A stretch of DNA of 64,000 bases from positions 58,966 to 122,965 of the IMG/VR virus record IMGVR_UViG_3300045988_148355; one strand, given 5' to 3'. Shown here one piece after another: positions 1 to 64,000 of the stretch (within the stretch, counting starts at the first letter, position 1; the number at the start of each line of letters is the position of its first letter). The translations under genes were made by a program, and so were the position numbers. Below the pieces are notes generated by a model. The model had not been told where the DNA came from. It ran no database searches and worked only from the letters and a program-made list of their open reading frames with translations. The stretch is from a virus.

Positions 1-2
1 CT

Positions 3-773
3 GGATATATTATTAATAATAAATTAAATACTATTACTAAAGATACAACTCTTAATGATAGTATTAGCAAGTTAATTGATAATAGCGACAGTAAATATAA
101 TACTTTATTAGGTCAAACTAATAATAGTTTCGGTAAAGATGCTGTTCCAACTCTTTATGGCTTAAGACAAGGAATTAATAGCGATAGAGATAGTATTAGT
201 AATTTAAGTGATAAAATTGATGTTCTGAACGGAGCAGAATCTACAACGAATTCTGTGACTTATAGTATTAAGTAGGCTATTAATAAATTAGATAAAGCTG
301 ATAATAAGGTAGATAAACAATTTGTCACCGCTGTTGAGGAAAAAGATGGTCTGATAACTGTTTCAAGAAGCGCCTTACAAGAAAGCGATTTACCTATTAC
401 TTTTGATGGAACTTATAGTAATAGTAATAAAGTTGCTACTATGAGTAGTTTAAATACTTTGAAAACAAATCTTTTAGGTGGTTATACTGGTACATTAGCT
501 GATGTAAATACTCTTGCAAGTAGTAAATTAAATGAAAACGCGGTGCGTGATCTTACATATAATGCGACTTCTGGAAATAATGGAGCTAAAACAATAACAG
601 GAATGTTTGATTTAATTGTAGAATTATAGAGTAAAAATACACAGTTAAATACAACTATTAAAGCATTATAGGATAAAGATACGGAATTAAATAAATTGAT
701 TACAGAATTAAGAACAGATGTTGATGAATTAAAAAAGAAAATAAATGCTAATACTCCATCTGAAACAACTTAA
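3..773 (+). CDS. 3' part of a coiled-coil tail fiber/structural protein (5' end outside window); in-frame TAG at 273, 627, 669; stop TAA 771
   Basis: Frame 0 is open from the window start to TAA 771 apart from three TAG codons. Residues are Ser/Thr/Asn-rich with a C-terminal heptad-like stretch. Track ORF 441..629 is one fragment of it. Confidence 0.55.
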
Positions 774-780
774 TTTAAAT

Positions 781-815
781 AAAGGGTTTGGTCTTAATAG
801 GCCAAACCCTTTTAG
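781..815 (+). terminator. rho-independent terminator
   Basis: Hairpin aaagggtttggtc / gaccaaaccctttt followed by a T-rich run directly after the TAA. Confidence 0.5.
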
Positions 816-861
816 TATTAATTAAAAAGATTTTATAAATAATAGAAAGGAGTCGATTATC

Positions 862-1443
862 TTGCCTAATACATTAAATAAATATGTAAAATTTGTCAGA
901 GGTTCTAAAGTTGCTTTTGAAAATTTAGGAACAAAAAGAGACAATGATACTTTATATTTTATTTATGGAGAAAATGATTCTTCTGGAGAACTTTATTTGG
1001 GTAATCGTCTAATTTGCGGTGGAATTAGTTCTGCAGGTAAGTTAAGCGATTTAAGTGATATTGTTCTTAATGAAGTTAAAGCGAATCAAGTTTTAATTTA
1101 TGATGAAGGACAAAAGAAATGGATTAATTAGGGTTTAGAAAATAATGAAACCTTAATCAATTCTATTGTTGAAAAATTATCTACAGAAGAGAATTTAGCT
1201 AAATTAGCTCCTGTTTTTAAGGGCGTAGTTCCAGGTTTAGTTCCTGTTTCCTTGCATGAAACTAAAGGAAAACATATTCTTACCGATGCAGGTACTTGGG
1301 TGAATATGCCAGTGGGAACATTAACTTAGGGAGATATTGAAACAATTAATATAGCTAATAAATATTTAGTAGATAAGGGTCCTGATAATTTGGTAACTCG
1401 TGTTGAAGCAGTTGAACAAACTGTTTCTTGGGCTGATATTTAA
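862..1443 (+). CDS. tail-fiber-like protein carrying the phage fiber N-terminal motif (KFVRGSKVAFENLG...LYFIYGE...GELYLG); TTG start; TAG at 1129 and 1327; TAA 1441
   Basis: RBS aaggag 8 nt upstream of the start. Track ORF 862..1131 continues in the same frame through two TAGs to TAA 1441. Confidence 0.55.
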
Positions 1444-1457
1444 AGGAGTGAAAAAGA

Positions 1458-3125
1458 TTGAACGTTAAGTTTTTAAAAGGCTCTCAAGCCGAATTTGAAA
1501 GAGTGGCAGGTAGATATAAACCTGGTGCATTTTATTTAGTAATTAATGATGATAAGTCCGCTGAGGATTATAAAAAACCAAGTCGTCTTTATTATGGTGT
1601 AGATGAAAATAATTGCGTTCCTGTAAATCAAGGTATTAATGTAATTAATACTACCGCAGATTTACCTCAAAGTTTTACTCAAAACACCGCTGGCGAATTT
1701 TATTATGTAAAAGATAAAAATATTTTATGTATTAATAATGGTAAAGATTGGATCCAAACTAATACCGATACTGTTTTAGATACTGATAAGAAGAATAGTA
1801 ATGTATCAGTAAATAGTAATCCTGAAAAACCTAATGGAGTTTCTATAACTAATACTATTGCTGATAGTAGTGGTAATATTATTACTGAAACTTATGATGT
1901 TGTTGGCAGTGATTATATTCAGGTTGAAGCTGTTCCCGCAGTTGGTGATAAAGGCGTAGATACTGTTAAACTAAGTTTAAAAGGAATTAATTATCAATTA
2001 GGTTCTTCTTTAAATAAAAAAACTTTAAATGTTAATTTAAAGAATGATGATGCTGATGCGGGTAATTTTAATATTATTGCTGGTAGTAATGTTAATATTG
2101 CTGAAACTTCCACAGGAAATTATACTTTAAGTGTAGACAAAGCGGTCAATGAATTTGCCATTAACAATCATGCTACTGGTACTGGTTTTACTGCTTCTAT
2201 TACTGGTCCTGGTATTGAAGGAAAAAATAGCACAACTTTATCTGCGGATATCGATCCAGAAATTGCTTTAGAAGGTAAAAGCGGTGGTTATAAGTTCAAG
2301 AATGGCGTTTTAACTCTTCCTGTTTATAGTAAGCAAGATATTGATAATCAACTTAGAACCATTAATGCTATGGTGTTTCGTGGTGGATTTTAGATTACCA
2401 ATGGAGCAATTGTATATGATGATACAAAAATTAATACAAATCCTAATATTGCTAAGGGTAATACTTTTATTTACACTGGAGCTGATGATGTTCTTTGGGA
2501 TGGCCATTATTTACGTACCGGAGATTTAATTATTGCTTCTGGCGAAGAGGTTGAAGGAATTATTACTGGTACTATTAAATGGACTTATGTGCCTTCTGCT
2601 GATGATCCTGTTACTGAAGTTGAAGGAGCCAGTGATAATAGTACTACTGGTTTTATTATTAAACTTGGTTCTACTAAAGAACTTTTAGATTACACTCTTA
2701 ACGGCGAAAGTGGTATTGTTTTAGAAACAAAAGTTTTAGAAGATTTAAAAGGTCAACCTACTAATTCTAAAGTTGTTACTATTAAACATAGCAATACTTT
2801 AACTGTAAATGATCCAGTCCCTCAAGATTATGCTGATGAACAAACTATTACTATTAACGAGCCAACTGAGATTGATGCCCAAGGACATGTGGTAAAATCT
2901 ACTCAAAAGACTTTTACAGTAAAAAATACTCACCAAGAAATTTTGGCGAATGGCTATACAACGAATGGAACTGATACTTTAATTCCTAGACTTAAAATTG
3001 CTGGTGCTGATTTTGAAAATGAACCAATTACTTTTACTAGTGATAGTTTAAAAGTAAATGTTTCTGCAACAGCTGAAAAATCTAACGCTAAAGTCAATTT
3101 TGAGTTAGAGTGGGGAACATTCTAA
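1458..3125 (+). CDS. tail fiber protein (~555 aa) formed by merging track ORFs 1458..2393 and 2589..3125 across in-frame TAG 2391
   Basis: Both ORFs are in frame 0 and the stretch between them has no TAA/TGA. N-terminal motif FLKGSQAEF...LYYGVDENN matches the phage tail-fiber N-terminal domain. RBS aggag upstream. Confidence 0.6.
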
Positions 3126-3186
3126 GGGCAATACTATTTAATAATAAATATAATTTTTTCTATTTTATATAGAAGAATGTTTTTAT

Positions 3187-3226
3187 GGGGAAAGATGAAA
3201 TATTCTTTCCCCATATTTTTTTTAGG
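3187..3226 (+). terminator. rho-independent terminator
   Basis: Hairpin ggggaaagatgaaatattctttcccc followed by a T9 run. Confidence 0.5.
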
Positions 3227-3243
3227 ATAGAAAGGAGTAAATT

Positions 3244-6200
3244 ATGTCTAAGATACGTTTTCGTCCCGTTTAGGGCCCAGAAGAAAAAATAAAGGCATAT
3301 CCTCAAACTGATGGATATTTTTATGTGGCAACAGATACAGGACGAGTTTATTTAGATACAGCGACTGAGAATAAAATACCGATAGGCTCAAGCGGAGTTT
3401 AGGTAATTTATGGAACTGAAAAAGAAGTCGAAATTGATTATGATGCAGATGAGAATCCAATTGGATATTCAATTCATTTATCTAATTTATCAAGTTCTAA
3501 TCCTCATATAAATGATTTAATTTTAAATAGCGATGGAGCATTTTATCGTATTAAAAAATTTAAATTAAATGATGATAAAGAAAAAGTTGCAAGTTGTGAA
3601 AAATTATTGGCGGGTGGTGGAAATCAAGACCAAGAAATTAAAGTAAATGGTACTGTTTCTTTAACTTTAGATGGTCCTACTGATGTGCTTAATGGTGAAT
3701 CAGTAAGTGTAACCGCTCTTGTAAAATGTAGAACAATAAACGGAGATCCAGTTCTTGATTCTGTTGAAGGCACTTTAACTATTAGATAGAAAAAAAGTGA
3801 TGGTTCTTGGGAAGATATTTATAGTGAAGCAAAAACTTATCAACATAATAAACCAATTACTATTGATATTTCAGCTCATTTAAGAAAATCTTCCACACAT
3901 GAAATTGAGTTTATTGTTAGTAAAAATAGTGATCCTACTAACAATCATTTTTCTACAACTAAGAAAACTCAATTTATAACTACTCATGAATTAACTCTTT
4001 AGTGGTAGGAAAGTAAATTTAATAATAATTTGCCTTTTGACAATGGTTAGATTAATATTACTTGGTTAATGTCCAATAAAGTAAATAGCGCTATTGAAGT
4101 TTATTTTGATAATTATTTAGTTTTAGATAAAGAATATGATAATACTAATACTAGAAATGAAGATAGTATTACTATAACAAAGAATACAATTATTTTAAAT
4201 AATAATAATGATTCTATAATAACTTTAGCAAATTATTTTCTTCATGGAGAACATACCATTAAAGCTAAACTTTATTTAGTTAATAGTGGTGAAAAAGGAA
4301 ATGGTACTGATTTTATTGAGAAAGAAATTGTTATTTTAGATAAAAGTAGCAAAACTCCTTTAATTTGGACTGGGGATTTTAAAACTGAATATTACACTTA
4401 TGAAACTATTAGAATTCCTTTTAGAGTATATGATCCCAATGTAATAATTGCGAAAGTTAGCTTGTATAAAAATGGTGTCTTATTAAGTACTCGTGAAATT
4501 GCTGATTAGACTATATGGCAATATTGGGAAATTACTAATCTTTCTGTTAATGATAGTTCCTATTATACAATTAAAGTAGGAACTGAGCCATATGATTATT
4601 CTCGTAATTTTACTTTTACAATTAAAATAGACCCATTGAGAAATATGGAATTGGCTAGAAGTAATGATTTAAAAGTTAATTTTGTTGCTACTGGACGCTC
4701 TAATTCTGAGAGTAAATTAAGCCGTGAAACATTAGAAATTAATGGTAAATATGCGGAATTTAAAAACTTTAATTGGTATAATAATGGTTGGGTTTTTGAT
4801 GATAATAATACTACTTGTTTAAGAGTTAGTAATGGAGCTGAAGTCTCTATTCCTATTGGATCATTATCTTTTGATAATAGTTCTTCTACTCCTACTCATA
4901 GTATTGAAATTCAATTTAAAATTAGAAATCCACAAAATTATTCTAAAGTAATTACAAAGTATACTCGTTATAAAGCAAGTGATGATTCTGGAAAATCTTG
5001 GACTGATAGAGACGCTTGGAATGCATTTAAAGATTAGTCTACTTATGTTAATTATGATGAATTCTTAACAAAAAAATATTTACCAGAACATCCAGAAGCA
5101 CCAAGTTATGATGAATTAACTTATAATGGATTAGATCAAGATTTTAATTTAAATAATCTTGTTTGTGCTTACGGTTCTTTAAAAAATCCTTTAGGTATTT
5201 ATTTTAGCCCTCAAGATGCTGTATTTACAGCTAATGGCGATGAAGAGACTGTTTCAGTTGATTTTGTAGAAGATGAAATGTTATATTTAACATTTGTTTA
5301 TACAAGTTCTAAGCCTGGCCATACTGGTGGAGATTCTAAATTATTAGAAATTTTTTTAAACGGTGTTTTAACTAGTGTAGCTCGTCGTTCTGATAAATCT
5401 AGCAATTCTGCTTGGACAATTGATTCTGATGTGATTAAATTTATGTCTAATACTTGTGATATTGATATTTATAGTATTAGAGTTTATGATGCTAGCTTAA
5501 CTATTCCTGACGTAGTTTAGAATTATGCTTTTGATAAAAAAGATATTAATCAATGGGACCAAAAAGATTTATATGATTATAATACTATTTTAAACGATTA
5601 CGTATTTTCTTATCGCAAAATGCTTGATTACAATACTGACCATAGTGATAAACCATTAATGCCATATATTATTTTAAAAACTACTAAAAATAATAGTGAA
5701 AGCACTGATAATAGACTTCCATACTCTAAAGAGAATGGTGCTCAAAAAGGAACTATGGAATTCGTAAATGTCCCATTAGATATTGCTTATGCTAAGGGCG
5801 AACTTGATAAAATAGTTGAAAAAGAGGGTTGGAAACCAGTAATAGATGAAGAAACTAAGGAAATAAAATATACTGCGGTATAGAATTATTATTTACATCA
5901 TTGCCCCAGCTTTATAACTCTTTTTGATAAAGCAACATTTTAGGTTTAGGGAACTTCTTCTCGTAATTATCCAAGACGTAATTATAAGGCTAAATGTAAA
6001 GAAGCTATGTTTATGAATAGAGGACCTTTTGAATCTATTTATAAAGAAGAAGAAGCAAATAATAATTTAAATACAAAAAGTAAGAGTTATCTTAAATTTT
6101 TCTATATGGATAATAATACTGTTGGTACTACTAAGTTTACTCTAAAAATTGATTTTATGGAATCTTCTGGAGATTATAATAGAGGATTTGCTAATTTAGT

Positions 6201-9200
6201 TAATGAAACTTATTCTAAGCATCCAATAGAAGATTATCAGGAGTCTTTTGATAAATATGATTTATATGAAAATGCTGATGATTATAGAACTTCTATGAAA
6301 GGATATCCTGTTTTAGCATTTCATTGGCCTTCAACTAATGACAATGAATATAGTGAAAATGATATTATTTATATTGGAAAATATAATATGTTATTAGATA
6401 AGGGGTCTGATGAATGTTTTGGATTTAAACCTGATAAAAAGGTTTTATAGAATCAAATTAATGGAACTCCAAAAGTAAGAGATATTGCTGAATGTTGGGA
6501 ATTTTAGAATAATTCAAGAACATATTGTTCTTTCCGTGATCCTTGGAATAGATATAAATTATCTTTTAGACCTCCATTAATGGATGATAAAAATTCAACA
6601 GGTTACTTAACTTCTGGCGGAGCTCCAATAGTTGCTGACTCTTTCGAAGTTAGATATAACTCTAATGATGATTTAATCACAGACCAATTATTTAAGTGCA
6701 TTTCAGCGGAAGCTACCGACGCAGATAAGATAATTGAATTTACTGACGCAATAAATAATACAGTTCCCGATAGATTAAAATCAGAAACCATTATTGATAA
6801 TTCTACTGGCATTAAACATAAACAATGGACTATTACTAATCCAGGACAAAATCCTATCATCTTTGATATGAAGAATAGAAATACTTCTCGTGAATTACTT
6901 CTTGCATTAATGTCAAATTGGGAAGATGCCGTAAGTTGGGTTTGGAGTACTTGTTTAGATTGTAGCATTGATTTTGATGGAGTTTTATATGAAATTCCTT
7001 CAATGGGTCAATATGAGAAAATAGATTTAGCTGAAGCTAAGTATGAGCCAAATAAATATTATCTATTTGATAAAGTTGATGAAAATGGTAGCGAAACTTA
7101 TAAAATTGCCACTGAAGATTTTAATTTAGAAGAAAAATATTATATTTATAATAAAGACAGTAAAGTTTATAGTATAATTAAATTAACTGATGATGATAAT
7201 AAAGTTTATTAGATAAATAAATACTATATTTTATAGAATTAGGATAATAAAATTTATATCTTAGATTCTGAAAAATATAATCCTTATACAACTTATTATT
7301 CTTTTATTGAAGATGAGAGCCAAATTGATGATAGATGGTTATTACCTACACCGATAACTTATAACTCAATTACTTACCATAAAGATAGTAAGGAATATCG
7401 TCAAGCTAAATTTAAAAATGAGTTAAGCAATTATTTTAATATTGAATATTTAGCTACTTACTTTTTAATGACTGAAATTTTTGAATGTTATGACTCTCGT
7501 GGTAAAAATGCGATGTTTGCTTCTTGGGGTCCTCAAAAAGGAAATATTGAAAAAATCACTGGAATTCAACATTATATTTGGTATCCTATTTTTTATGATA
7601 TTGATACTCAATTAGGTATTAATAATACTGGTATTCCATCATTTGAATATTATGTTGATGCTACTGAAGATGGTAGTTATTCTACTAATGATAGTGTATT
7701 ATGGAATAATTTCTATACTTTCTTTAAGAGCAAAATTGTTGATAAATACAAGCAATTAATGGGTAAGCCAAATGGATCTTATGATTAGAGCCAAGTAAAA
7801 CAAATTTTTAAGAAAGAATCTGGAACTTCCTCTAAAAAAAGTGATGTTGTTGATAAATGGTATAAAACAGATCCTTCTTTATTCCCAGGTAGTTATGCTG
7901 TATAGGGAGAGCGTCCTATTATTGCTTTAAATTTAGATGAAGAATATAAATATATTATTCCAACTAATTCAGCGGCCAAGGATACTATTTTTGGTCGTAT
8001 TACTAATGGTGGTTAGTATGAAGTAGAAACTGATTAGTATTTTTATGCTTTATAGGGTGACCGCAATCTTTATCGTTCTCAATTTTTAACTAATCGTCTT
8101 AATTATATTGACTCTTGGTTAACCGTAGATGAATATTCTGGAGATAGTGGTAGTAATAATATTATAAGTCGTATTTCTGCTAACAATCCGAATACTACAT
8201 CTGATGAATGGATTGAAGGAACTAATAATTAGGGATTAACTAATTTAATACCAAATTCTCCTTATTGGAAAGATGGAGTTGAATTTGGCGCTAAAAATCA
8301 TATGTTCGATGGTGAATATTGGATTGAGATGGAACCAGCACGTCGTTCTTATGTTACTGTTGGAACAGACGGAGCAAATTTCCCATCTTAGAAATATGAT
8401 GGTTTAACTCCAGTTAGATTTACTGCCCCAGACTTAAAAAAAGGTATTATGTCAAGTGGTAATTATCGCGAACAATTATATTATATTTACGGACTAGAAC
8501 AAATGAAATCTCTTGGAGATTTAAGTAAATTATATTTCCAAGAATTATTCATTAGAGGTAAAGCTAATAAATTAGTAGATTTATTATTAGGATATGATGG
8601 TCTTTCCGAGCAAGGAAAAGAATATAAAAATAATGATGTAAATAATTGGAGTTATCCTAGTGAAGGTATGCCTCTATTAAAAGAAATGAATCTTTGTAAT
8701 ATTAAATTTTTAAATCCAGTAGCTTTAGATTTAACTAAAAGTGAAAAATTAGAAAACTTTAGAAATACCGGTTCTAATGTTACTAAAGTTTAGTTTGCTG
8801 AAGGAGTTGCTTTAAATACTTTATATTTAACTGATTATACAAATTACTTAAGTTTAATAGAAGCAAATCTTTTAACTAAATTAGTTACTAAATATGTATA
8901 TCCTACAGTTAATCCTATTACTAATCGTCTTGAGGTTGCAGAAGAAAATAAGGGGTTATATATTAAGAATCTAACGGATGTCGGAGATACCGCAATTACA
9001 ACAAGTATAAAAACTTTTGATATCCGTGGTGGTAATTTAGATTATTATTCTTATGAATTATTAAGACGTTATTATCTTGGGTGTGAAAAAAGTAATTTAA
9101 TGGGATGTGAAATTAATTTAACTAATGTCCAATGGAGTCCTTATAGACTGTTAAATGATGATAAAACAGAATTGAATAGTAATATTGAGTATTATAAAGA

Positions 9201-10944
9201 TAATGGACACTTCCAATTAGAAAAAATTAATATAGAAGATATAAGTAAAATTACTCCAAGTGAAATAAAGAATAATTTAATTTATTATTATGATAATAAT
9301 ATAAATGGATATAATGATATTCATAATAAAATTACTGATTATACTTTATTACGTAATTTATATAATAAAGCTCCGGTTTATTTCAAAGGTATTAATTAGA
9401 CTCATCCTAATATAACTGGTGTTATTTATATTGAAAATGCTCAAGAAATAGAAGAACATGTGATTCAAGAAGAACTGCAAAGTATTTATCCTAATTTAAT
9501 TATTTTTGTAAAAAATGTTAAAAAAGAATATTCTGCTAAATTTGTTCTTGAACAGGAAAATACGGATGGAGTACTAACTCAAGAAATTTTAAAAACTTAG
9601 AAATTACCTTTATCAAGCACTAAGTTTTTTGATAATCCTACGAATTCTTCAAATGAGACTTATATTTCTTTTGGCAGCTTGCAAGAAAAAATGCCTACTT
9701 ATGACTTTAAAGGTTGGGAAGATGATACTGGTGAATTAATAATTACAATTGGAAAAGATGTAAATGAAAAAGATATTGTTTTAAAAGATAATTGGGATTC
9801 TTTATCTTTGCGATCTGATAAAATAGATTATATTTTTAAAGCGAGATTTGAGCGTAAATCTTATACAATTACTTTTGTTAATGGCGATCGTGTTATTGAT
9901 GATTCAACTGTAAAGAAAGTATTTAATTATGGTGAAAGAATTACTGTTCCAGAAGAATTCTATTATTTTAATAATACAGAAGTATCTGATTTACCAAAAG
10001 GTGAAGACTCATTAGAATGGACTTGGAGATAGACGGGATGGGCAGATAAAGATGGAGTTAAAATTGATTTAACTAAACAATTAGCTTATTCCGACCGTGA
10101 ATTCTATGCTGTTGGAGAGCCGATTAGTGTTTATGATAATATTTTAACTAATGATTCTACTCATAAATATTATGATATTATAAATTCTGATGGAGAGTTA
10201 TCATTTGTAATGACTGACTTAGCTAAGAATTTAAAAGGCAAAGTTACTTTACCTACAACCTATAATGGCTAGCCAATTACAAGGATTAGATATACTTAGG
10301 TGAATCCCTCTGCAGCTGTTGGTATTCAAGTAAATCCTAATATTACAGCAATATTTTTTGCTCCAAAAGATAGTAATAAAGTTTCTGTAATAGATGATTA
10401 TGCTTTTATTTTAGATGAAGGATTAGAATATTTCCAATTTAGTAATTGTTTAAAGAAAATTGGTATTAAAGCATTTTATAGATGTCCTTTAAGTTATAAC
10501 AATATAATTCCTTATTCTTCTTCAACTGAAGGATTAAGTTTTGGATCTCAAGCATTTTATCAAAGTAAGATGGGATCTTATTCTCCTTATAATTTAATTA
10601 TAGAAGGATGTAAAGATGGTATTCTTAATTTTGATTTAAATGCATTTTCTGGTTAGACAATTTTAAATATGTCTGGTAATCAATTTAAAGGATATACAGG
10701 AGCTATTTAGATATAGATTGGTACAAATAAACATCCAATTAAACAAATTACTGTTGATAGTTCTGGTAATATTTTTACCCCTAGTCGTACTGGTATGCCT
10801 ACTATTGTTAATGGATATACTGGTCGTTTTAGATATTATTATGTTGGTAGCTATGGTGAAAATGTTAAAAATACTTTACACAATATTTATGAGGCAATGA
10901 TATCTAATAGAGCGAACTTTGAAGAAGAACCTATTGTAAAGTGA
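3244..10944 (+). CDS. giant structural protein (~2,566 codons; tail fiber, host-specificity or tail-associated protein) containing ~33 in-frame TAG codons; ATG 3244, stop TGA 10942
   Basis: Fourteen track ORFs (4069.., 4636.., 5278.., 5620.., 6007.., 6580.., 7468.., 8449.., 9100.., 9679.., 10300.. and others) all lie in frame 1 (start mod 3 = 1). They are separated only by TAG. The first TAA/TGA in this frame after 3244 is TGA 10942. RBS aaaggag at 3231-3237. Confidence 0.55.
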
Positions 10945-10953
10945 GGATAAATT

Positions 10954-11155
10954 ATGGAAAAAGAAATTGTTTATAGATATATGGGTTCTAATGGTATTAT
11001 TGAATCTTCTATATAGTTATCAGGAATTTCTGCAACTACTTTATATAGATTAATAGCAGATTACAATAAAAAATTAACGAGAGATGGAAAAGAGTTTTTT
11101 TTCATCTCTCCTTTAGTTCCTGAAAATGAATTAAAAGAGTGGTATGAGGTTTAAA
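10954..11155 (+). CDS. small hypothetical protein (66 aa, one in-frame TAG)
   Basis: An ATG follows the TGA of the giant gene after a ggataaatt spacer. The frame is open to TAA 11153. Confidence 0.35.
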
Positions 11156-11188
11156 TAGGCCAGAATACATTGATTTAAATATAAAAAA

Positions 11189-11232
11189 AATTAGGTTAAA
11201 TAGGAAAAGAAACTATTTAACCTAATTTTTTT
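11189..11232 (+). terminator. rho-independent terminator
   Basis: Inverted repeat aattaggttaaata...tatttaacctaatt followed by a T6 run. Confidence 0.45.
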
Positions 11233-11250
11233 AGAAAGGAAGAGATAGAT

Positions 11251-12927
11251 TTGATAGTTAAAAATGATAGCGTTATCGAGCAAGCTAAGTGGGAAGAACT
11301 TCAAAAGAAAATCAATACTTTAGCTAAAGATAACAAAATAAAAAACGTTAATGGAAAAATCGTTGAAATAAAATCTATTGAAGACTATTATAGTAACATC
11401 ACTGGTATTGTTCAAATGAAGAAGCTAGATCCATCTGTTCTTCGTATACCTTTAGATGAGCCTATTATAAATATAAATGCTGATACTCGTCAAATTGAAT
11501 TAACTAAAGAGTTTGGAAAAACTCAATTGCTTACTGTTGAAAATGATCATTTGGCAGAAACAATTTATTTTCAAATTGATAGATATTTTGATTTATAGGA
11601 TTTGGCGGCTGATGATATTAAAATTTATATTTAGTATTATTTAAACGATCAAATTCAAGGTTATTCTGAAGCTATTTGCCCTGATATTGGTACTGCTGGA
11701 AAATTAATTTTTGGTTGGCAAATTAGTGATGAAGTAACTAGTGAATCTGGTACTTTATAGTTTTCTATTATTTTCTTCAAAAAGAATCCAAAAGATAATA
11801 ATAATTTAATGTATGTATTTAATACATTACCTGCGCAAATGGTTATTAATAAAACTTTAGACATTGATGAAGATTTAGTTACTGCGCAACCTGTTGATTA
11901 TTTAACTGGGTATTTAGAAAGCTTAATTGATTCAAAGAAATCCGCAGGCTTTGGAGTTCCTGATAATGTGGCTTTCTTGACAAGTATTTTGAATAACAAA
12001 TCAGTTTATTTAACTGGTGATAAATTATATGCTTTAGCTTATAATGATACTTTAAATAATCCAGATAATACTACTATTGAGTATAAATGGATTTGTAATT
12101 ATAGAGGAACTAATACTGAATTAAAAAATGGTATTGGTTATGAATATAAAAAAATTGTTGATGATAATAGTATTTTTAGTGGAGATATGGCTTATAATGA
12201 AAAATTGACCTATTTTACTAAAAATGGAGATACTTATATTAATAGTAGTAGTGATATTAATCTTGAAAATTATGTTGCTAAAAAGAATGACCTTTATTTA
12301 AAAGTTCAATATTGTGAAGTTGATGGATGTGGAAGTTATAGTGTGACAGCATTTGGCGCAACCGCGAATCAAGTAAGTAAAGAAGTTAAATGGGTAGGAT
12401 TAAGTGTTGTTGTGGAAGGTATCAGTGAAGATTTTAAAATTATTCTTGATCCCTCTCCTGATAATGGATGTTATTATGGCTCTTCTAATACAATTACTGC
12501 TATTGGATAGAATGATGAGGGAGTTCAATGTACTTATCTTTGGACAAAGAATGGATCTGAATTTAGTAATGAAAAAACTGTAACTTTAACTCAAGAAGAT
12601 AATTACACTTTAACAGTTCATGGGTATAAAAATAAAGATAATATAGATTATGGTCCAATTAATTTTACTAATTATTTTGATCCTATTAATTTAGTGCCTA
12701 CTGGTGAAGTAAAAACTGAAAATGGAAAATATATTGTTAATATCACTAATACTAGTGAGTTGGGAAATGGAATTTATGAATATTAGTGGAAAAATGCTGA
12801 AGGTGTTACTCAAATAACTACTTCTGGAACTAATAATGCAATAGAAATAAATGAAAATATTACTCAAGTGGCTGTCATTATCAAAAAAGGCGAAAGAAAT
12901 TCAAAGCCAGGAGTACTTACGATATAA
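11251..12927 (+). CDS. structural protein (~558 aa) with a conserved VENDHLAETIYFQIDRYFD motif; several in-frame TAGs; TAA 12925
   Basis: Track ORFs 11251..11598 and 11809..12510 share a frame and are joined through TAGs. TTG start preceded by RBS gaaaggaag. Confidence 0.5.
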
Positions 12928-12939
12928 GAGGTAAGATAA

Positions 12940-13560
12940 ATGATAACTAATCCAACTGATTATTATAGCGTTTTACATCAAATACAAGATGAAAATTTCC
13001 CGGTAAAATATCCAGCTCTTCCGGCTCCAGAAGATGAAAAATTAGTTTAGGTAAATTTAAATTCAAGGACTATTAGTAATGAAAATAATTATATTACAGT
13101 TGAGGGTGATCACGCTGCTGAAATTATTTATTTTGAAATAGATAGATATTTTGACACTATGGATTTAACTAATATGATGTGTATTATTCAGTATATTAAT
13201 GCTGATAATGAAAAACGCATTTATCCAGTTCCATATTATGATACTTTGACTCATAAAGATAAAATTATTTTTCCTTGGGTTTTAAATTATAGCGCTACTA
13301 AAAAATCTGGTAATTTAAATTATATGATAACTTTTTACAGAATAGAAAAAGATTCTAATAATTTATTATATAATTTAAATACATTACCAGCAAGTCTTCA
13401 GGTTTATTCTAAACTTAATTTAGATTCTATCGTAAAAGAAGAAGATTATTATGTAATTGATGATAGCCAAGTAGTTCAACAAATTTGGGAGCGTTTAGCT
13501 CGTTTAGAAGGATTTGTTGGTGGTAATGGGTTGGATGTTTATTGGATTGTTCTTGAATAA
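12940..13560 (+). CDS. paralog of the preceding gene (motif VEGDHAAEIIYFEIDRYFD); one in-frame TAG
   Basis: ATG 12940 preceded by RBS aagagg. Same frame as track ORF 13159..13560. Shares N-terminal architecture with the 11251 gene. Confidence 0.5.
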
Positions 13561-13568
13561 ATAAACTA

Positions 13569-13605
13569 AATGGTATAGAATTATTAATTTAATTCTATAC
13601 CATTA
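13569..13605 (+). terminator. hairpin / putative terminator
   Basis: Inverted repeat aatggtatagaatt / aattctataccatt directly after the TAA. Confidence 0.4.
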
Positions 13606-13633
13606 ATTTATAGAAAGGAGTTATTGAAGATCG

Positions 13634-14662: not shown

Positions 14663-14696
14663 TATAAATTTATTGTAAGAAAAAGGAGATAATATT

Positions 14697-15107: not shown

Positions 15108-15111
15108 AAAT

Positions 15112-15152
15112 AAGGGAGACATTCTTAATTGAATGTCTCCCTTATTTTTTTT
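15112..15152. terminator. bidirectional rho-independent terminator between convergent transcripts
   Basis: Hairpin aagggagacattc-ttaatt-gaatgtctccctt. A-run on one side and a T10 run on the other. Confidence 0.6.
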
Positions 15153-15808: not shown

Positions 15809-15949
15809 TGAGTCATTTTGCTAATCGCTATTGTCGCAAACACCTACGATAAAAATTTTAATCACCTTCATTTTGTTTATTTTAGAAAAAATTTTTCTAT
15901 CTTTATATTCTTTCTACATTATAATTATACAAAAATTTTTAAATATTGT

Positions 15950-18421: not shown

Positions 18422-18425
18422 ACCT

Positions 18426-51451: not shown

Positions 51452-53266
51452 TTACCAATTCGCGACCCCGCCGATCAGCGGAAAAGTAGGTAAGGGCCAG
51501 ACTTTCTCGTACCCTTTCATACGTCCTAATTCAAAGTTTTTGCTTTTCATAGTTTTTCTGAATGTTTCAAGAGCGACGTCATCTTTAAGATATTTAATAT
51601 TTGTGCCCCAAGTCGCTTTATAAAGAGGTGGAACCGCAGCATAAATATAACCTTTTTCAATTAATTCAGGTGCAAATTTCCAAATAAATGTAAGAAATAG
51701 AATACGAATATGGCTACCATCAACATCAGCATCCGCTGTGATAATAATCTTACCATAACGTAATTTAGATTCGTCCACAATTACTTTACCATCTTTAACC
51801 TCAAGACCAAAAGCATCAATCATCGCACTAATTTCTTTATTTCCTAATGCTTTATGCAAATCTGTTTTTAAAGTATTAAGGATTTTACCTCTTACAGGCA
51901 AAACTGCTTGTGTATTACGGTTACGAGCTTCTTTAGTAGGGCCTTCCGCGGAACGGCCTTCAACAATAAAAATTTCACATTCGCTTCTATTTTTACTATT
52001 GGCATCACTTAGTGTGCCGGGTAGAATGGTTCTTTTCTTTGTATCAACTTTACGAACGGTTTCTTTAGCCTTTTTCGCTTTTTCGCGTGCCGCACGCGCC
52101 AGCATTGCCTTATCTACAATAGCTTTAGCATCTTTTGGATTATTGTCGAGCCAAACTTTTAAATCTTTTGAGACAAGACGTTGAACAATAGTTCTTGCTT
52201 CACTACTGGATAAAACATCTTTGGTTTGACCAGAGAAAACCGGATCAGGCATAATAAATGAAAGAACAAGACTTAATCCTTCTTTAAGTTCTTCACCAGT
52301 GATATTAGCATCTTTCTCTTTTAAAAGACCTTTATCACGAGCATATTCATTAATAGAAGTAGTAAGTGCTGTTCTAAAACCGGTTAGATGTGTTCCACCA
52401 CTATTAGGAATTGAATTAGTATAAAGTTTATAAGTATCGCTATAGGTATCATTATATTCCATAGCAATTTTTACACCAATTCTATCTTCAATATTTTCAG
52501 TATAAAAAATTGAAGTAAGAGAAGTTTTATTGCTATTTAAATCTTTAATATAATCAAGAATACCATTTTTTGAAGTAATCTCTTCTTCTGGCTTATCAAG
52601 ATAAGTAAAATGAAATACCATACCAGGAGAAAGATAAGCTAATTCTTGAATTTGTTTTCTTAAAGCATCATAATCAAGAAGAATACCTTCTTTAAAAATA
52701 CTTTCATCTGGCAAAAATTTAACCCAAGTTCCAGTCTCTTTACCAGTCCATTTTTCTTCTTGATAATCTTTTAATTTTCCTTTTTCAAAAGATGCAACTG
52801 CGTGTTTACCATCACGGAAAGACGCTACTTGAAAATAACGAGAAAGAGCGTTAGTGGCTTTAGCGCCAACGCCATTCATACCACCAGATGTATTATATCC
52901 AGTTTTTCCGTTGCTATCAAATTTTGCACCGGTATGTAGTTTTGTATAAATATTTACCAATGTTTCACTACCGTCTTTAGCTTTTCCAAAAGGAACACCA
53001 CGTCCATTGTCGCGGATTTCAACATAACCATCTTTAGATACTGAAATATCGCAACGAGTACAATGACCATTTAAATATTCATCAACCGCGTTTGAAATAA
53101 TTTCAAGAGTAATATGTTTAACTCCATCGGGTCCAGTAGAACCGATAAACATACCAGGTCTAAGACGAATTGCCTCCATCCCTTCTAAAGTTTTTATATC
53201 TTTAATACCATAATCATCTTTTCCTCTTTTGAGGATAATTTCTTGACTCAATCTAAATACCTCCAA
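51452..53266 (-). CDS. type II topoisomerase subunit B (GyrB/ParE/T4 gp39-like: GHKL ATPase plus TOPRIM)
   Basis: Motif EGRSAEG. ATP-lid segment GGMNGVGAKATN. Confidence 0.85.
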   Translation of the reverse strand: MEVFRLSQEIILKRGKDDYGIKDIKTLEGMEAIRLRPGMFIGSTGPDGVKHITLEIISNAVDEYLNGHCTRCDISVSKDGYVEIRDNGRGVPFGKAKDGSETLVNIYTKLHTGAKFDSNGKTGYNTSGGMNGVGAKATNALSRYFQVASFRDGKHAVASFEKGKLKDYQEEKWTGKETGTWVKFLPDESIFKEGILLDYDALRKQIQELAYLSPGMVFHFTYLDKPEEEITSKNGILDYIKDLNSNKTSLTSIFYTENIEDRIGVKIAMEYNDTYSDTYKLYTNSIPNSGGTHLTGFRTALTTSINEYARDKGLLKEKDANITGEELKEGLSLVLSFIMPDPVFSGQTKDVLSSSEARTIVQRLVSKDLKVWLDNNPKDAKAIVDKAMLARAAREKAKKAKETVRKVDTKKRTILPGTLSDANSKNRSECEIFIVEGRSAEGPTKEARNRNTQAVLPVRGKILNTLKTDLHKALGNKEISAMIDAFGLEVKDGKVIVDESKLRYGKIIITADADVDGSHIRILFLTFIWKFAPELIEKGYIYAAVPPLYKATWGTNIKYLKDDVALETFRKTMKSKNFELGRMKGYEKVWPLPTFPLIGGVANW

Positions 53267-55574: not shown

Positions 55575-56878
55575 TTACACCAATCCTTTATCTTTCATAA
55601 TTCTATAAAGAACTACAATCATTTCTTCACGAGTCATAAATTTTTTATACATTTTACGATTTAAATTATCGCCTTTAATATATCCTTTGCTTTCAGCCCA
55701 AGTTCTTTCCGTATCAGACCAAGAACTTGCGTTTTTTTCAGCTTGTTGATTTAAATAAACTTCCATCATTTCATTAAATTTATCCTAAGTCATATCGTCT
55801 TCATCCTCCTCATTAATATTTATATTATCACCAATTTTTTGTTTAAATAGCTACCATTGGTAATCGCCACTTGTTTTATAATAACTATTCATATCAGTTC
55901 CGCACAACGGACGAGGGCATAATTTACCAGTTACGTCATAGTGACGAATAACACGATTCGCAGGTATATTGTATTTCTACATTAATTGCTTTACTAATTG
56001 TACTGTATTTTCTAATGCTCTTGGATCGAAATACCAATCAGTATCACTGGCTACAATATTAGATTTATTTATTTTACAGGGTCTTACTTCAATTCCAATA
56101 GAATTAGCATTTCTACATTCAGGATGTTTATATCCTTTTCTTGTGCCGCAGTGCCAAGCAATATCTTCATCTTTAACACTACGATAAATAATATCTTTTT
56201 CATCAACACAATAATGGGCTGATGATTTAGCGACAGGATTTTTAAAATAATTACTAATATTTTTTGCCGTTCCCAAAGAACCAAAATAATGTATTACAAT
56301 ATATTTTATTTTTCTATTATTGCCTTTTTGATAATTAGATGTTGTTAAATTATCTACAATTTTCATATCTTCACCTTTTCCTATAAATTGGTCATATATT
56401 TCAACCCCATAATATAATCTCTACTATTGGATTTTTAAACTCTAATCTTTTGGTCGTTCAAACTATGTTAAAACTATATTTGAAGCAGTCTATATATCTT
56501 TACAATTTATTAAAGTATTCCAAACGGTAGGATAATATGTAGAAAGTTGATAAATTAAAAATTCAAGTTGTGTATTTAAGTTTCCTATTGAAGTATTTTT
56601 CTTTTTTGTAAAATCATATAATTGTTTTTTAAGACTCCAATAAGTCCATTGAGCTAAACCATATCCAACTTTATCATAAATGAAATTAGTATATTTACCA
56701 TTATCTACTTGTTTTGTATACTATTCATCATTTAATCCAAGTGTTTTTTCAAAACTATTTTGAAGATTTTTTGGATTAAAATTTGATTCAGCTTTTAAGT
56801 TTCCCATTAGCCCGGCTGTTCCATAAGGATTTTTTATTTGTTTATACAAATAATTCCAAGTTATTTCAATGTTAGTCA
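55575..56878 (-). CDS. three-domain endolysin: phage-tail-lysozyme-like N-domain, Amidase_2/PGRP N-acetylmuramoyl-L-alanine amidase, C-terminal SLH-like cell-wall-binding module; about five in-frame TAGs
   Basis: Track ORFs 55977..56366 and 55575..55769 lie in the same frame. Amidase motifs IVIHYFGS, HYCVD, AWHCG and HYDVTGKLCP. SLH-like segment SWSDTERTWAESKGYIKGD...TREEMIVVLYRI. Confidence 0.65.
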
Positions 56879-56898
56879 TATTATCCTCCTTTCTATAA

Positions 56899-62352: not shown

Positions 62353-62409
62353 TATAATAATCTCCTTTATATTGAATTATTATATTTAAAATTTATTTAA
62401 TAATGATTG

Positions 62410-62676
62410 TTAGGTTTTGCCAAAAGAGGTATTCCGGACATAATCCAAAGATTCTTTTGCTTCATCTTTATACACCCCATTCTCAAAATTTTCTTTAAAC
62501 TCTTCCACTTCTTCTGGAGTTCTACATTCGATATGATTTACTTCTTCTTTGCAATAAATACAATACAACTTTTTACGATGAAATTTACCATGCTGAAGAC
62601 TTACTCGACGAGATAAAGGAATTCCTTTTCGTCCACAATTCATACAGTAAAAATCATGGTTTTCATAAGAGGCCAT
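62410..62676 (-). CDS. zinc-ribbon hypothetical protein
   Basis: Track ORF with CxxC...CxxC. Confidence 0.3.
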   Translation of the reverse strand: MASYENHDFYCMNCGRKGIPLSRRVSLQHGKFHRKKLYCIYCKEEVNHIECRTPEEVEEFKENFENGVYKDEAKESLDYVRNTSFGKT

Positions 62677-62681
62677 TTATA

Positions 62682-62888
62682 TCACTCCTTTAAATTTGAA
62701 CGAGAAGGAATTGCAATATTAATAAAAATCTTAATGACAAACATCTGCCAATAAGTAATGCTTGGAAAGCAAAACCAAGGAATAAGAGCAGTATTCCAAA
62801 TAAGTAGCATGATAGCTACTTCAATGAACATAAAAGCTATACCCGCAAGTGCCATAGAAATATCATCATAATCGTTCATTTTTATCAA
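62682..62888 (-). CDS. small membrane protein
   Basis: Track ORF, hydrophobic. Confidence 0.3.
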   Translation of the reverse strand: MIKMNDYDDISMALAGIAFMFIEVAIMLLIWNTALIPWFCFPSITYWQMFVIKIFINIAIPSRSNLKE

Positions 62889-62950
62889 TTCCTTTCTTAA
62901 CCTTATATATATATTATATATTATTTTTTATAAAAAATCAATAAAGATCT

Positions 62951-63229
62951 TTATACTTCCTTTAAATGATTTTCACATTCTTCAGCATCATATTCAACAG
63001 TTAAATTTGTAGCATCAAGATAACCACCATCATAGTAAAGTATATCGTGTTTAACAGTAGCATTTTTATAAATTTCTTCCTCGTTAGTATCTTTTACAAT
63101 TTTAAAAAGATCACATAAAAATCTACAAGCAGATTCAATAGTGTCAAATTTAAGAGCTTTATCATCCCAACAGAGTGGATTAACACCCTCTTTTGTTTCA
63201 TAAATATGATATTTCATACCTCTAACCAT
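62951..63229 (-). CDS. hypothetical protein
   Basis: Track ORF. Confidence 0.3.
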   Translation of the reverse strand: MVRGMKYHIYETKEGVNPLCWDDKALKFDTIESACRFLCDLFKIVKDTNEEEIYKNATVKHDILYYDGGYLDATNLTVEYDAEECENHLKEV

Positions 63230-63240
63230 TATTTTTCTCC

Positions 63241-63960
63241 TTACATAGTAAATTCAATAGTCTCGAACGTATCAAGGTCAATAAGACAAGTTTTTCCAGT
63301 AGCAAAAGAACCATTATCAATATCGCATTTATGTCCATCGCAATACCAAAAATGATTCATATTTTCCAAATCAAAATCTTTATAACTTTTGCCTACTGCG
63401 ATATAAGGATCATAATTAGGCATCAGCAGAAAAGGCGTATGGCCATGAATACAGAAAGTGCGGTCTGCGGATGAATCTTCGGGCCACGGATCATAAAAAT
63501 GATCTCGACTCCAAATTAAATTATAAGAATTAGGGCTATCGCCAAGAGTATAACCGGCATGAGAAAGAAGAATAATTTGATTATCCTTATTCACATAGGT
63601 TTCTTGCAGAGGAAGTTTAGCAAGTTCACGATACCATCCAGGATTAGCATGTTCTCCAATTTGCCAATCTTCAAATGTTTTTGCTCCACTATTATTACAA
63701 AGAAGAGCATATGCTCGACTAAAATTTTCATCTTTAAGATAATCTTTCATAGCTTCAAATAACATATCTTCATGATTACCTTTAAGATAAATAACTCTTT
63801 TGTCCGCAAGAGCATTTTTAATAATTTCCCAACCATCATTTCCGCGGTCTGCGCAATCACCCAGACAATAAAGAGTATCAGTCGGATCAAGATATTTCAT
63901 AATTTGATCCCAAAGGGGCTTCATACCATGAATATCACTAACCGCATATGTTTTATTCAT
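63241..63960 (-). CDS. Ser/Thr protein phosphatase (lambda-PPase-like metallophosphatase)
   Basis: Motifs DIHG, GDCADRG and GNHE. Confidence 0.7.
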   Translation of the reverse strand: MNKTYAVSDIHGMKPLWDQIMKYLDPTDTLYCLGDCADRGNDGWEIIKNALADKRVIYLKGNHEDMLFEAMKDYLKDENFSRAYALLCNNSGAKTFEDWQIGEHANPGWYRELAKLPLQETYVNKDNQIILLSHAGYTLGDSPNSYNLIWSRDHFYDPWPEDSSADRTFCIHGHTPFLLMPNYDPYIAVGKSYKDFDLENMNHFWYCDGHKCDIDNGSFATGKTCLIDLDTFETIEFTM

Positions 63961-64000
63961 AAAATATCAATCCTTTTTTAATTTATATATATATTATAGA

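What the first reader, a model, noticed from the sequence alone, without database searches (positions are those of the whole stretch)
1..64000. TAG is a sense codon throughout (likely Gln, genetic code 15); the ORF track fragments essentially every large gene
Seen directly: adjacent track ORFs separated only by TAG are in the same frame with no TAA/TGA between them. Examples are 1458..2393 plus 2589..3125, and fourteen fragments between 3244 and 10944. Conserved enzymes also read through TAG with uninterrupted domain order. NrdD continues across TAG 23827 from the ATP-cone/N-domain into the glycyl-radical domain. The Dda helicase continues across TAG 29982. The DHH esterase spans four TAGs. 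DnaB, the endolysin and RuvC do the same. Every gene terminates at TAA or TGA. TGA is not recoded: stops are followed directly by an RBS and a start, as at 10942. Gln is favoured because TAG falls in Q-runs (YPQQQYP, PAQQQPVE) and aligns with E/M/N/K/R positions among the GIY-YIG paralogs (GYN-E-T, QYN-M-T, GYN-TAG-T). No suppressor tRNA was found in this window.
Basis: partly seen in the sequence, partly recalled or inferred. Interest (0 to 1): 0.9.

Follow-up and report, generated by a model that had tools for sequence, protein, structure and literature searches.

The report
Gut phage reads TAG as glutamine
This 64-kb stretch comes from a large human-gut phage that reads the stop codon TAG as glutamine, mostly in its late virion and lysis genes; this is a real but already well-described kind of genetic-code change.

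Summary

- **Coding density:** with only TAA/TGA as stops it rises from 75% to 94%. Making TGA sense gives 77%. One 2566-codon ORF holds 33 in-frame TAGs.
- **Amino acid:** in about 20 independently assembled relatives (95-96% nucleotide identity), window TAG sites are TAG (372), CAG (13) or CAA (4), and nothing else. More distant relatives, some using the standard code, mostly carry CAA/CAG there. The NrdD TAG aligns with Gln in two of three solved NrdD structures.
- **Not uniform:** 30 of 73 genes, and 8 of 19 genes of at least 300 aa, have no TAG. These include DnaE, GyrB, ligase, a probable primase and PhoH. TAG makes up 31% of Gln codons in the virion block, 36% in the endolysin and 14% elsewhere.
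- **Suppressor tRNA:** the window has no tRNA. Walking along relatives found a tRNA with anticodon CUA in all 10 near-identical genomes reached. It lies in a tRNA array of at least 20 genes, about 41 kb past the window's right end.
- **Family:** syntenic relatives include standard-code and probable TGA-recoded members.

This matches the published picture of alternatively coded gut phages. It is a new member of a known kind, useful for annotation but not surprising.

The parts
1..64000 (.). Window of a roughly 195-kb phage genome in which TAG is a sense codon. There are 136 in-frame TAGs in 43 of 73 called genes. Stops are TAA (56) and TGA (17).
3..19047 (+). Virion (tail or tail-fibre-like) gene block of 15 genes. 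It holds 64 TAGs, which is 31% of Gln-type codons and 11.2 per 1000 codons.
   Evidence: Fisher P=5e-7 against the rest. Upstream neighbours in relatives carry 10-22 TAGs each, and one hits a PHROG 'tail protein' family.
1458..3125 (+). 555-aa virion-block gene with a TTG start after AAGGAG and one TAG at 2391-2393. Table 11 splits it into 1458..2393 and 2589..3125.
3244..10944 (+). 2566-aa giant virion-block protein with 33 in-frame TAGs (41% of its Gln-type codons). It ends at TGA 10942-10944, followed by a ribosome-binding site and ATG 10954.
   Evidence: phrog_14959, E=8e-56
16115..16561 (+). In relatives these TAGs are replaced mainly by CAA/CAG.
22225..24543 (-). Anaerobic ribonucleotide reductase NrdD, with one TAG at 23827-23829 and a TGA stop.
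   Evidence: Pfam NRDD 2-562/562. The site reads CAA 14, TAG 13, CAG 10 in relatives. It is Gln in T4 NrdD 1h78 and in 9d3x, and His in 8p23.
25123..29136 (-). DnaE-type DNA polymerase III alpha, 1337 aa. None of its 51 Gln-type codons is TAG, so it is readable in the standard code.
   Evidence: P=2e-5 under uniform TAG use
29427..30620 (-). SF1 (Dda/RecD-like) helicase, with one TAG at 29982-29984.
   Evidence: Pfam AAA_30/UvrD_C_2. The site reads TAG 18, CAA 9, CAG 8 in relatives.
32570..34318 (-). RecJ-like DHH phosphoesterase, with 6 TAGs in the called gene and 7 in the stop-to-stop ORF.
37038..38570 (-). DnaB-type replicative helicase, with 2 TAGs (38502, 38394) and a TGA stop.
55575..56879 (-). 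Endolysin (Phage_lysozyme2 plus Amidase_2) with 9 TAGs, which is 36% of its Gln-type codons.
42726..43739 (-). Gene with a C-terminal GIY-YIG homing-endonuclease domain, 4 TAGs. Three further GIY-YIG genes at 49264-49950, 50611-51300 and 53248-53997 carry 3-5 TAGs each.
51452..53179 (-). GyrB N-terminal part, 575 aa, no TAG.
45090..46304 (-). ATP-dependent DNA ligase, no TAG. Other TAG-free genes of at least 300 aa are 34989-36092 (probable primase, no Pfam hit), 39229-40224 (AAA_24), 40372-41319, 56943-58205 (PhoH/PIN) and 59118-60503 (flotillin/SPFH).

Best explanation
The window is part of a roughly 195-kb tailed phage from the human gut. Its host is probably a Clostridia-class Firmicute.

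In this phage TAG is decoded as glutamine (translation table 15), while TAA and TGA remain stops. Decoding is most likely done by a phage-encoded amber-suppressor tRNA with anticodon CUA and Gln-type features: U1 unpaired, G73. In all near-identical genomes reached, this tRNA sits in a large tRNA array about 41 kb beyond the window's right end.

TAG is used unevenly. Core replication and nucleotide-metabolism genes have none or one, so an unmodified host ribosome can translate them. These include DnaE, GyrB, ligase, a probable primase, AAA_24, PhoH, dUTPase and a guanylate-kinase-like gene. Virion genes, the endolysin and the homing endonucleases are rich in TAG. Full-length late proteins therefore need efficient TAG decoding, most likely by the suppressor tRNA.

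Shown: TAG is sense, it equals Gln, its use is uneven, and tRNA(CUA) is present in relatives. Inferred: the window's own genome carries that tRNA, a host enzyme charges it with Gln, and the uneven use acts as a timing or safety device for late and lysis genes.
For: - **TAG is sense:** frame-specific counts. Density rises from 0.747 to 0.936 under table 15, against 0.771 under table 4. Pfam domains run through the TAGs in NrdD, RecJ-like, GyrA, DnaB and Dda.
- **TAG is Gln:** codon table against 43 related loci. At >=95% identity: TAG 372, CAG 13, CAA 4. At 60-80%: CAA 60, TAG 42, CAG 21, GAA 12. The reverse test agrees. So do the NrdD site in PDB homologues and endolysin site 365.
- **Uneven use:** (dispersion test: none of 20,000 simulations reached the observed value; 10 genes rich in Gln-type codons have no TAG, against 3.5 expected).
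- **Suppressor tRNA:** tRNA(CUA) found in 10 of 10 close-clade contigs. Both alleles fold as cloverleaves with loop CUCUAAA, U1 unpaired and G73. Allele A shares its acceptor stem and D arm with a tRNA-Gln(UUG) of a related phage.
- **Phage identity and host:** endolysin, tail and homing-endonuclease hits. IMG/VR contigs of 190-197 kb, one with DnaE split across its ends. DnaE is 39% identical to SPbeta-like Bacillus phages. Shine-Dalgarno motifs precede 43 of 72 genes, against 7% by chance. Cellular homologues of the flotillin gene are in Oscillospiraceae and Lachnospiraceae. Relatives occur in Hadza gut assemblies.
- **Literature:** the pattern matches Borges et al. (bioRxiv 10.1101/2021.08.26.457843). 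Gln at TAG was shown by metaproteomics in crAss-like phages (PMC9523058, abstract).
Against: - The window itself has no tRNA, and its exact genome was not found. The best relatives are 95-96.5% identical, so presence of the suppressor in this genome is an inference.
- No RF2, GlnRS or other code-change protein was seen in the roughly 125 kb of the genome type examined. About 70 kb was not examined.
- Some replication genes do carry TAG (RecJ-like 6, DnaB 2, NrdD 1, Dda 1), so the early/late split is statistical, not clean.
- Expression timing was not measured.
- If the host lacks GlnRS, as many Firmicutes do, the route by which a CUA-anticodon tRNA gets Gln is unknown.
Confidence: 0.92

Rival explanations
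1. TAG is a sense codon but encodes another amino acid: pyrrolysine, or Ser/Leu/Tyr through a long-arm tRNA, or Trp, Glu or Lys.
For: ARAGORN labels CTA anticodons 'Pyl'. Suppressor allele A has an extra arm in the variable region, like class II tRNAs. At weakly conserved sites TAG aligns with E, K, N or D.
Against: At >=95% identity the only replacements are CAG and CAA. TAG falls on conserved Gln positions in NrdD and the endolysin. The tRNA has U1/G73 and a Gln-like acceptor stem and D arm. Its extra arm is a 3-4 bp hairpin inserted in an otherwise Gln-like tRNA. No pyl genes were seen.
Confidence: 0.03
2. The TAGs are true stops. On this view the genes are pseudogenes or fragments, or the TAGs are sequencing or assembly errors, or only rare read-through occurs.
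For: Table 11 is the default for bacteria and phages. No suppressor tRNA lies in the window.
Against: The same TAGs recur in about 20 independent contigs and four ENA assemblies. No TAA or TGA accumulates in these frames. Homology continues across the TAGs. With 33 TAGs in one ORF, low-efficiency read-through would give essentially no product. TAGs are spread evenly along genes. A tRNA(CUA) is conserved in relatives.
Confidence: 0.01
3. The sequence belongs to a low-GC bacterium, for example a Mollicutes-like organism, that uses code 15 genome-wide, rather than to a phage that switches the code inside a standard-code host.
For: 95% identical contigs are deposited in genome bins labelled 'uncultured Mollicutes bacterium' and 'Clostridium sp.'.
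Against: The gene content is phage-like: tail-like proteins, endolysin, homing endonucleases, and DnaE/DnaB/Dda/RecJ/NrdDG modules syntenic with IMG/VR contigs of about 195 kb. About 40% of genes avoid TAG entirely, which is unexpected for an organism-wide code. Syntenic relatives use the standard code or TGA recoding. No ribosomal or other cellular core genes were seen.
Confidence: 0.03

Closest known systems
Alternatively coded (TAG to Gln, code 15) gut phages of Borges et al. 2021/2022, especially the large clades with scattered recoded modules (Jade, Sapphire, Agate)
   Same: Low GC (30%). TAG read as Gln. Virion and lysis genes are recoded while replication genes are variably recoded. Suppressor tRNA(CUA) is present. 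Relatives in one clade use codes 11, 15 and 4. Genome size is 150-210 kb. Structural genes lie in several modules. The phage occurs in non-westernised (Hadza) guts.
   Different: Clade membership was defined there by a terminase tree, and the terminase is not in the window, so it was not tested. No RF2 or aaRS 'code-change module' next to the lysis gene was found here. In this genome type the suppressor sits in a distant tRNA array.
crAss-like phages using code 15 (metaproteomic proof, Peters et al. 2022, PMC9523058) and Lak megaphages
   Same: TAG reassigned to Gln in late genes of uncultured human-gut phages.
   Different: Those infect Bacteroidetes, and their genome types are unrelated. This phage has strong Shine-Dalgarno sites and an SPbeta-like DnaE, and its genome is about 195 kb rather than about 100 kb or about 550 kb.
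phAss-1 / proposed Phassvirus (PMC10607447)
   Same: Human-gut phage with in-frame TAG in many characteristic ORFs and with suppressor tRNA genes.
   Different: That genome is 136 kb. No nucleotide match to any GenBank phage was found for window 22000-46000. Relatedness was not tested further.
SPbeta-like Bacillus phages (YorL DNA polymerase)
   Same: They are the closest cultured relatives of the DnaE-type polymerase, at 39% identity over 98-99% of its length.
   Different: They use the standard genetic code, are temperate siphoviruses of 125-135 kb, and share no nucleotide similarity with the window.

Membership tests
Code-15 (TAG to Gln) alternatively coded phages | In-frame TAG inside conserved genes, with homology continuing across it | tested here: met
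   NrdD Pfam profile 2-562/562; RecJ-like, DnaB, Dda and endolysin domains all span TAGs.
Code-15 (TAG to Gln) alternatively coded phages | Clear gain in coding density and gene length under table 15 but not table 4 | tested here: met
   Density 0.747 under table 11, 0.936 under table 15 and 0.771 under table 4. Mean length 169, 274 and 171 aa.
Code-15 (TAG to Gln) alternatively coded phages | TAG aligns with Gln (CAA/CAG) in homologues | tested here: met
   P0001's Gln residues were excluded as circular, because they are code-15 translations of TAG.
Code-15 (TAG to Gln) alternatively coded phages | TAA and TGA remain stops | tested here: met
   56 TAA and 17 TGA stops. A ribosome-binding site and start follow TGA 10942. 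NrdD ends at TGA with the full profile covered.
Code-15 (TAG to Gln) alternatively coded phages | Phage-encoded suppressor tRNA with anticodon CUA | tested here: inconclusive
   Absent from the window. Present in 10 of 10 contigs of the 95-96% identical clade, about 41 kb beyond the window. The window's own genome was not available.
Code-15 (TAG to Gln) alternatively coded phages | Recoded codon enriched in structural and lysis genes, with a set of genes compatible with the standard code | tested here: met
   TAG share is 31% in the virion block and 36% in the endolysin, against 0% in DnaE, GyrB, ligase and PhoH.
Code-15 (TAG to Gln) alternatively coded phages | Phage-encoded RF2 and/or Gln-tRNA synthetase (optional, seen in a minority) | tested here: inconclusive
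   None among annotated window genes. None in the tRNA-array ORFs judged by eye, without a family search. About 70 kb of the genome type was not examined.
Code-15 (TAG to Gln) alternatively coded phages | Gln found at TAG positions in the proteins | not testable with these tools
   Needs metaproteomics.
Named clades Jade, Sapphire or Agate (Borges et al.) | Placement in the large-terminase phylogeny | not tested
   The terminase is not in the window or in the loci fetched, and the reference sequences are not held.
Pyrrolysine (TAG to Pyl) decoding | pylT/pylS/pylBCD genes, and TAG at Pyl sites of methyltransferases | tested here: not met
   No such domains in the Pfam scans of the window's larger genes. 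TAG exchanges with CAA/CAG. The tRNA(CUA) alleles are ordinary cloverleaves with Gln-type ends.
crAss-like phages / Lak phages | Bacteroidetes-type translation signals and their hallmark gene sets | tested here: not met
   Shine-Dalgarno motifs precede 60% of genes. The replication module is of DnaE/SPbeta type. No nucleotide match to any GenBank phage record for window 22000-46000.

The most novel reading that the evidence does not exclude
The suppressor gene in this lineage may be a fast-evolving, swappable cassette, and its charging may be unusual.
- Genomes that are about 95% identical carry two unrelated tRNA(CUA) genes at exactly the same site.
- Allele A has an extra variable-region hairpin. 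Allele B has an aberrant T-loop.
- Both have an unpaired U1 and G73, and both lack the encoded CCA that about 85% of neighbouring tRNAs have.
- Syntenic relatives use the standard code, or carry a TGA suppressor at a different site.

If the host is a Clostridia species without GlnRS, Gln would have to reach a CUA anticodon through non-discriminating GluRS plus GatCAB, or through an unknown phage factor. That route has not been shown. Together this would give a natural series for watching gain, replacement and loss of a genetic-code switch.
Probability: 0.15. Interest if true: 0.55.

Novelty: new member of a known kind. Interest (0 to 1): 0.3.

Why it matters
**Practical.** Under the default table 11, about a fifth of this sequence is mis-annotated and its largest virion genes are shredded. 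Near-identical contigs are filed in public genome bins as 'Mollicutes' or 'Clostridium' bacteria. Recognising code 15 fixes gene calls, protein catalogues and binning.

**Biological.** The window adds a well-resolved, Firmicute-type example of TAG-to-Gln recoding. It has a clear split between TAG-free replication genes and TAG-rich virion and lysis genes. It also has close relatives in all three coding states. This supports, but does not extend, the published idea that recoding gates late gene expression.

Tried and rejected
- **Megablast to GenBank phages:** window 22000-46000 gave no match.
- **P0001 as evidence for Gln:** rejected. This endolysin homologue (95% identical, Gln at all 9 sites) has TAG at those sites in its DNA, and the public catalogue translated it with code 15, so the evidence is circular.
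- **Exact-sequence look-up of the window's DnaE:** nothing found, so the window's own contig is unknown.
- **tRNA searches near the window:** empty in the window, in DnaE +/-10 kb of relatives, and at +/-10 kb beyond both window ends.
- **Syntenic site of the TGA suppressor:** in distant relatives it lies at the junction of the two convergent gene blocks. That site is only a 35-bp gap in the window.
- **Similarity ranking of the suppressor against about 1000 phage tRNAs:** ambiguous. Ser, Lys, Trp and Gln scored alike because of the insert. The direct alignment to tRNA-Gln was more telling.
- **Group I intron in the split gyrB:** no Rfam hit.
- **RuvC label for 19588-20031:** not confirmed by Pfam, and only weakly by PHROGs.

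Full report
**1. The observation**

The window has 30.4% GC. If only TAA and TGA are stops, long open frames appear that table 11 breaks up. The extreme case is 3241..10944 (+), 2568 codons with 33 in-frame TAGs. In 25 long ORFs, frame 0 holds 84 TAG. The two other frames hold hundreds of all three stop triplets.

A simple greedy gene call gives these figures:

| Table | Coding density | Mean length | Genes of at least 300 aa |
|---|---|---|---|
| 11 (standard) | 74.7% | 169 aa | 12 |
| 15 (TAG sense) | 93.6% | 274 aa | 19 |
| 4 (TGA sense) | 77.1% | 171 aa | 12 |

The Pfam NRDD profile is matched from position 2 to 562 of 562 straight across the TAG. RecJ-like, DnaB, Dda and endolysin domains also span TAGs.

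TGA is a real stop. TGA 10942-10944 overlaps a ribosome-binding site, with ATG at 10954, and NrdD ends at TGA with its whole profile covered. Stops are 56 TAA and 17 TGA. TAGs are spread evenly along genes.

**2. Which amino acid**

I fetched 43 loci around DnaE homologues from IMG/VR. I then read the codon opposite each window TAG.

| Identity band | Codons opposite window TAG |
|---|---|
| >=95% | TAG 372, CAG 13, CAA 4, nothing else |
| 80-95% | TAG 207, CAA 15, CAG 10, GAT 8, GAC 5 |
| 60-80% | CAA 60, TAG 42, CAG 21, GAA 12 |

Conserved sites are clear. The NrdD site reads CAA 14, TAG 13, CAG 10; the Dda site reads TAG 18, CAA 9, CAG 8. In reverse, at >=95% identity every relatives' TAG that is not also TAG in the window lies opposite a window Gln codon (29 of 29).

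Independent homologues agree. The NrdD TAG aligns with Gln in T4 NrdD (1h78) and in 9d3x, and with His in 8p23. Endolysin site 365 is Gln in 108 of 120 database homologues.

One apparent proof had to be discarded. The 95%-identical endolysin P0001 has Gln at all nine sites, but its DNA has TAG there. The public catalogue had simply translated it with code 15.

The same TAGs recur in about 20 independent contigs and four ENA assemblies. That rules out sequencing errors and pseudogenes.

**3. TAG use is uneven**

43 of 73 genes contain TAG, and 30 do not. Eight of the 19 genes of at least 300 aa have none:
- DnaE (0 of 51 Gln-type codons, P=2e-5)
- GyrB N-terminal part
- ATP-dependent ligase
- 34989-36092 (probable primase, no Pfam hit)
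- AAA_24
- 40372-41319
- PhoH/PIN
- a flotillin-like gene

TAG makes up 31% of Gln-type codons in the plus-strand virion block (1-19047), 36% in the endolysin, 33-42% in three free-standing GIY-YIG homing endonucleases, and 14% in the rest overall (Fisher P=5e-7). A dispersion test rejects uniform use: none of 20,000 simulations reached the observed value.

So 'essentially every large gene' is overstated. The pattern is the early-compatible, late-recoded one described for alternatively coded phages. It is statistical rather than clean. RecJ-like has 6 TAGs, DnaB 2, and NrdD and Dda one each.

**4. What the sequence is**

Gene content found:
- tail-like proteins and an endolysin
- four or more homing endonucleases
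- DnaE, DnaB, Dda, RecJ-like, NrdD/NrdG, GyrA/GyrB and ligase
- dUTPase, a guanylate-kinase-like gene and PhoH

Near relatives are IMG/VR contigs of 190-197 kb. One has DnaE split across its ends, so the genome is circular or circularly permuted. They are 95-96.5% identical to the window in nucleotides, and none is identical.

The closest cultured polymerase is that of SPbeta-like Bacillus phages, at 39% identity. No nucleotide match to any GenBank phage was found. Shine-Dalgarno motifs precede 60% of genes, against 7% by chance. Cellular homologues of the flotillin gene are in Oscillospiraceae and Lachnospiraceae. Relatives occur in Hadza gut assemblies.

I infer a Clostridia-type host in the human gut.

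**5. The suppressor tRNA**

The window has no tRNA by ARAGORN or by Rfam at E<=1. Relatives have none within DnaE +/-10 kb, nor 10 kb past either window end.

I walked along the relatives from the right end. The walk passed these features in order:
- TAG-free genes
- a small tRNA group: Thr, Ser, Ser, Leu, Gly, Lys, Cys
- a variable cluster of TAG-containing tail-fibre-like genes
- a large tRNA array of at least 20 genes

In all 10 close-clade contigs reached, a tRNA with anticodon CTA lies between tRNA-Val and tRNA-Tyr. In contig 3300045988_118370 it is near 77.6 kb, about 41 kb beyond the window's right end.

Two unrelated alleles occupy the same site. Allele A is 89 nt with a small extra hairpin in the variable region and occurs in 7 contigs. 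Allele B is 72 nt with T-loop AUCGACA and occurs in 3 contigs. Both fold as cloverleaves with anticodon loop CUCUAAA, an unpaired U1 and discriminator G73. From established knowledge of tRNA-Gln identity in E. coli, a weak or open 1-72 pair and G73 are Gln-type features.

Allele A shares its acceptor stem and D arm with a tRNA-Gln(UUG) of a related phage. A global similarity ranking was ambiguous. No release factor or aminoacyl-tRNA synthetase was evident among the array ORFs, which I read by eye only.

**6. Family context**

Synteny of the replication block is conserved down to about 50% protein identity. Within that set:
- Some relatives are more heavily TAG-recoded. L010 and L035 rise from 0.40 (table 11) to 0.86 and from 0.38 to 0.83 (TAG sense) in the ORF-coverage measure.
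- Some use the standard code: L015, L018, L023, L031, L037, L042 and L043.
- Some look TGA-recoded. L021, L022 and L030 also carry a tRNA(UCA) at the junction of the two convergent gene blocks.

Clades mixing codes 11, 15 and 4 are what Borges et al. report.

**7. Mechanism and confidence**

- Shown: TAG is a sense codon and equals Gln. TAA and TGA are stops. TAG is concentrated in virion, lysis and homing-endonuclease genes. Near-identical genomes encode a tRNA(CUA).
- Inferred: this genome has the same tRNA, a host enzyme charges it with Gln, and late proteins therefore depend on it, giving a timing or safety function.
- Unknown: whether RF2 or GlnRS is encoded in the roughly 70 kb not examined, and how Gln reaches a CUA anticodon if the host lacks GlnRS.

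**8. Novelty**

TAG-to-Gln recoding in uncultured gut phages is established, including by metaproteomics (PMC9523058). Its bias to late genes and the role of suppressor tRNAs are also established (bioRxiv 10.1101/2021.08.26.457843; PMC10607447). Public pipelines already translate this lineage's genes with code 15.

The finding is correct and matters for annotation. It is a new member of a known kind.

Noticed in passing
window 50283-53275 (-): gyrB is interrupted. The N-terminal part (51452-53179) runs through Toprim and ends near the RMKG motif. A GIY-YIG homing-endonuclease gene follows (50611-51300). The GyrB C-terminal domain resumes inside ORF 50283-50666 (VGEM...). This is either an undetected group I intron or a gene split into two polypeptides. 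Rfam gave no intron hit.
   Followed up: partly
L282-L291, for example L286 9681-9770 and L287 9716-9788: The amber-suppressor tRNA has two unrelated alleles at the same site in genomes about 95% identical. Both lack an encoded CCA, while about 85% of tRNAs in the same array encode it. Both have U1 unpaired and G73.
   Followed up: partly
L021 12245-12316, L022 12269-12340, L030 22168-22239: Syntenic relatives (DnaE about 53% identical) carry a tRNA with anticodon TCA (opal suppressor) at the junction of the convergent replication and virion blocks. They gain ORF length when TGA is read as sense. The same phage family therefore seems to hold TAG-recoded, TGA-recoded and standard-code members.
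   Followed up: partly
L148 5402-5474; L143 4643-4716, 8602-8675, 17465-17555: One related contig has a tRNA with anticodon TTA (ochre suppressor). Another has a 39-tRNA array with two TCA suppressors and one CTA suppressor.
   Followed up: no
L074 591-730 and L078 3188-3327: A tRNA-Lys(UUU) gene carries a 65-nt insertion in its anticodon loop. The insert itself looks like the 3' half of a tRNA (T arm, acceptor strand and CCA). ARAGORN misses the gene, but Rfam tRNA scores it 59.9 bits.
   Followed up: partly
L142 about 11430-11550: A tRNA-Tyr-like 3' half (anticodon arm GTA, T arm, ACCA) is followed directly by a matching 5' half (acceptor strand, D arm). This is a permuted or broken tRNA, flanked by repeated promoter-like elements.
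   Followed up: no
L078 1983-2111: Rfam RAGATH-33 RNA match at 126.8 bits (gathering score 120.4), inside the tRNA region of a close relative.
   Followed up: no
window 59118-60503 (-); L296, L297: The flotillin/SPFH gene has no TAG and an atypical Gln codon choice (CAG 18, CAA 3), suggesting recent capture from a Clostridia host. Contigs 95% identical to the window sit in GTDB genome bins labelled 'Clostridium sp. SUG910' and 'uncultured Mollicutes bacterium' (163.9-kb contig). These are probably phage contigs binned as bacteria.
   Followed up: partly
L024 14644-17597; L017, L026, L029, L031, L037, L040, L043: In one relative nrdD is split by a GIY-YIG endonuclease gene. In seven relatives the DnaE match spans 1-1.9 kb more DNA than in the window, which suggests inserted introns, inteins or endonuclease genes.
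   Followed up: no
window 36279-36983 and 44473-45039 (-); L049 2097-2888, L049 4413-5210, L078 5487-6254: A family of paralogous small genes with CxC zinc-ribbon repeats and a DUF2726-like C-terminus is scattered through the genome type. All contain TAGs. They are possibly another mobile nuclease family.
   Followed up: no
L142 1-9300, L274 1200-9300, L277 270-9500: Between the two tRNA groups lies a cluster of tail-fibre-like genes containing TAGs. It differs strongly among genomes that are otherwise about 95% identical, so it is probably a host-range cassette.
   Followed up: no
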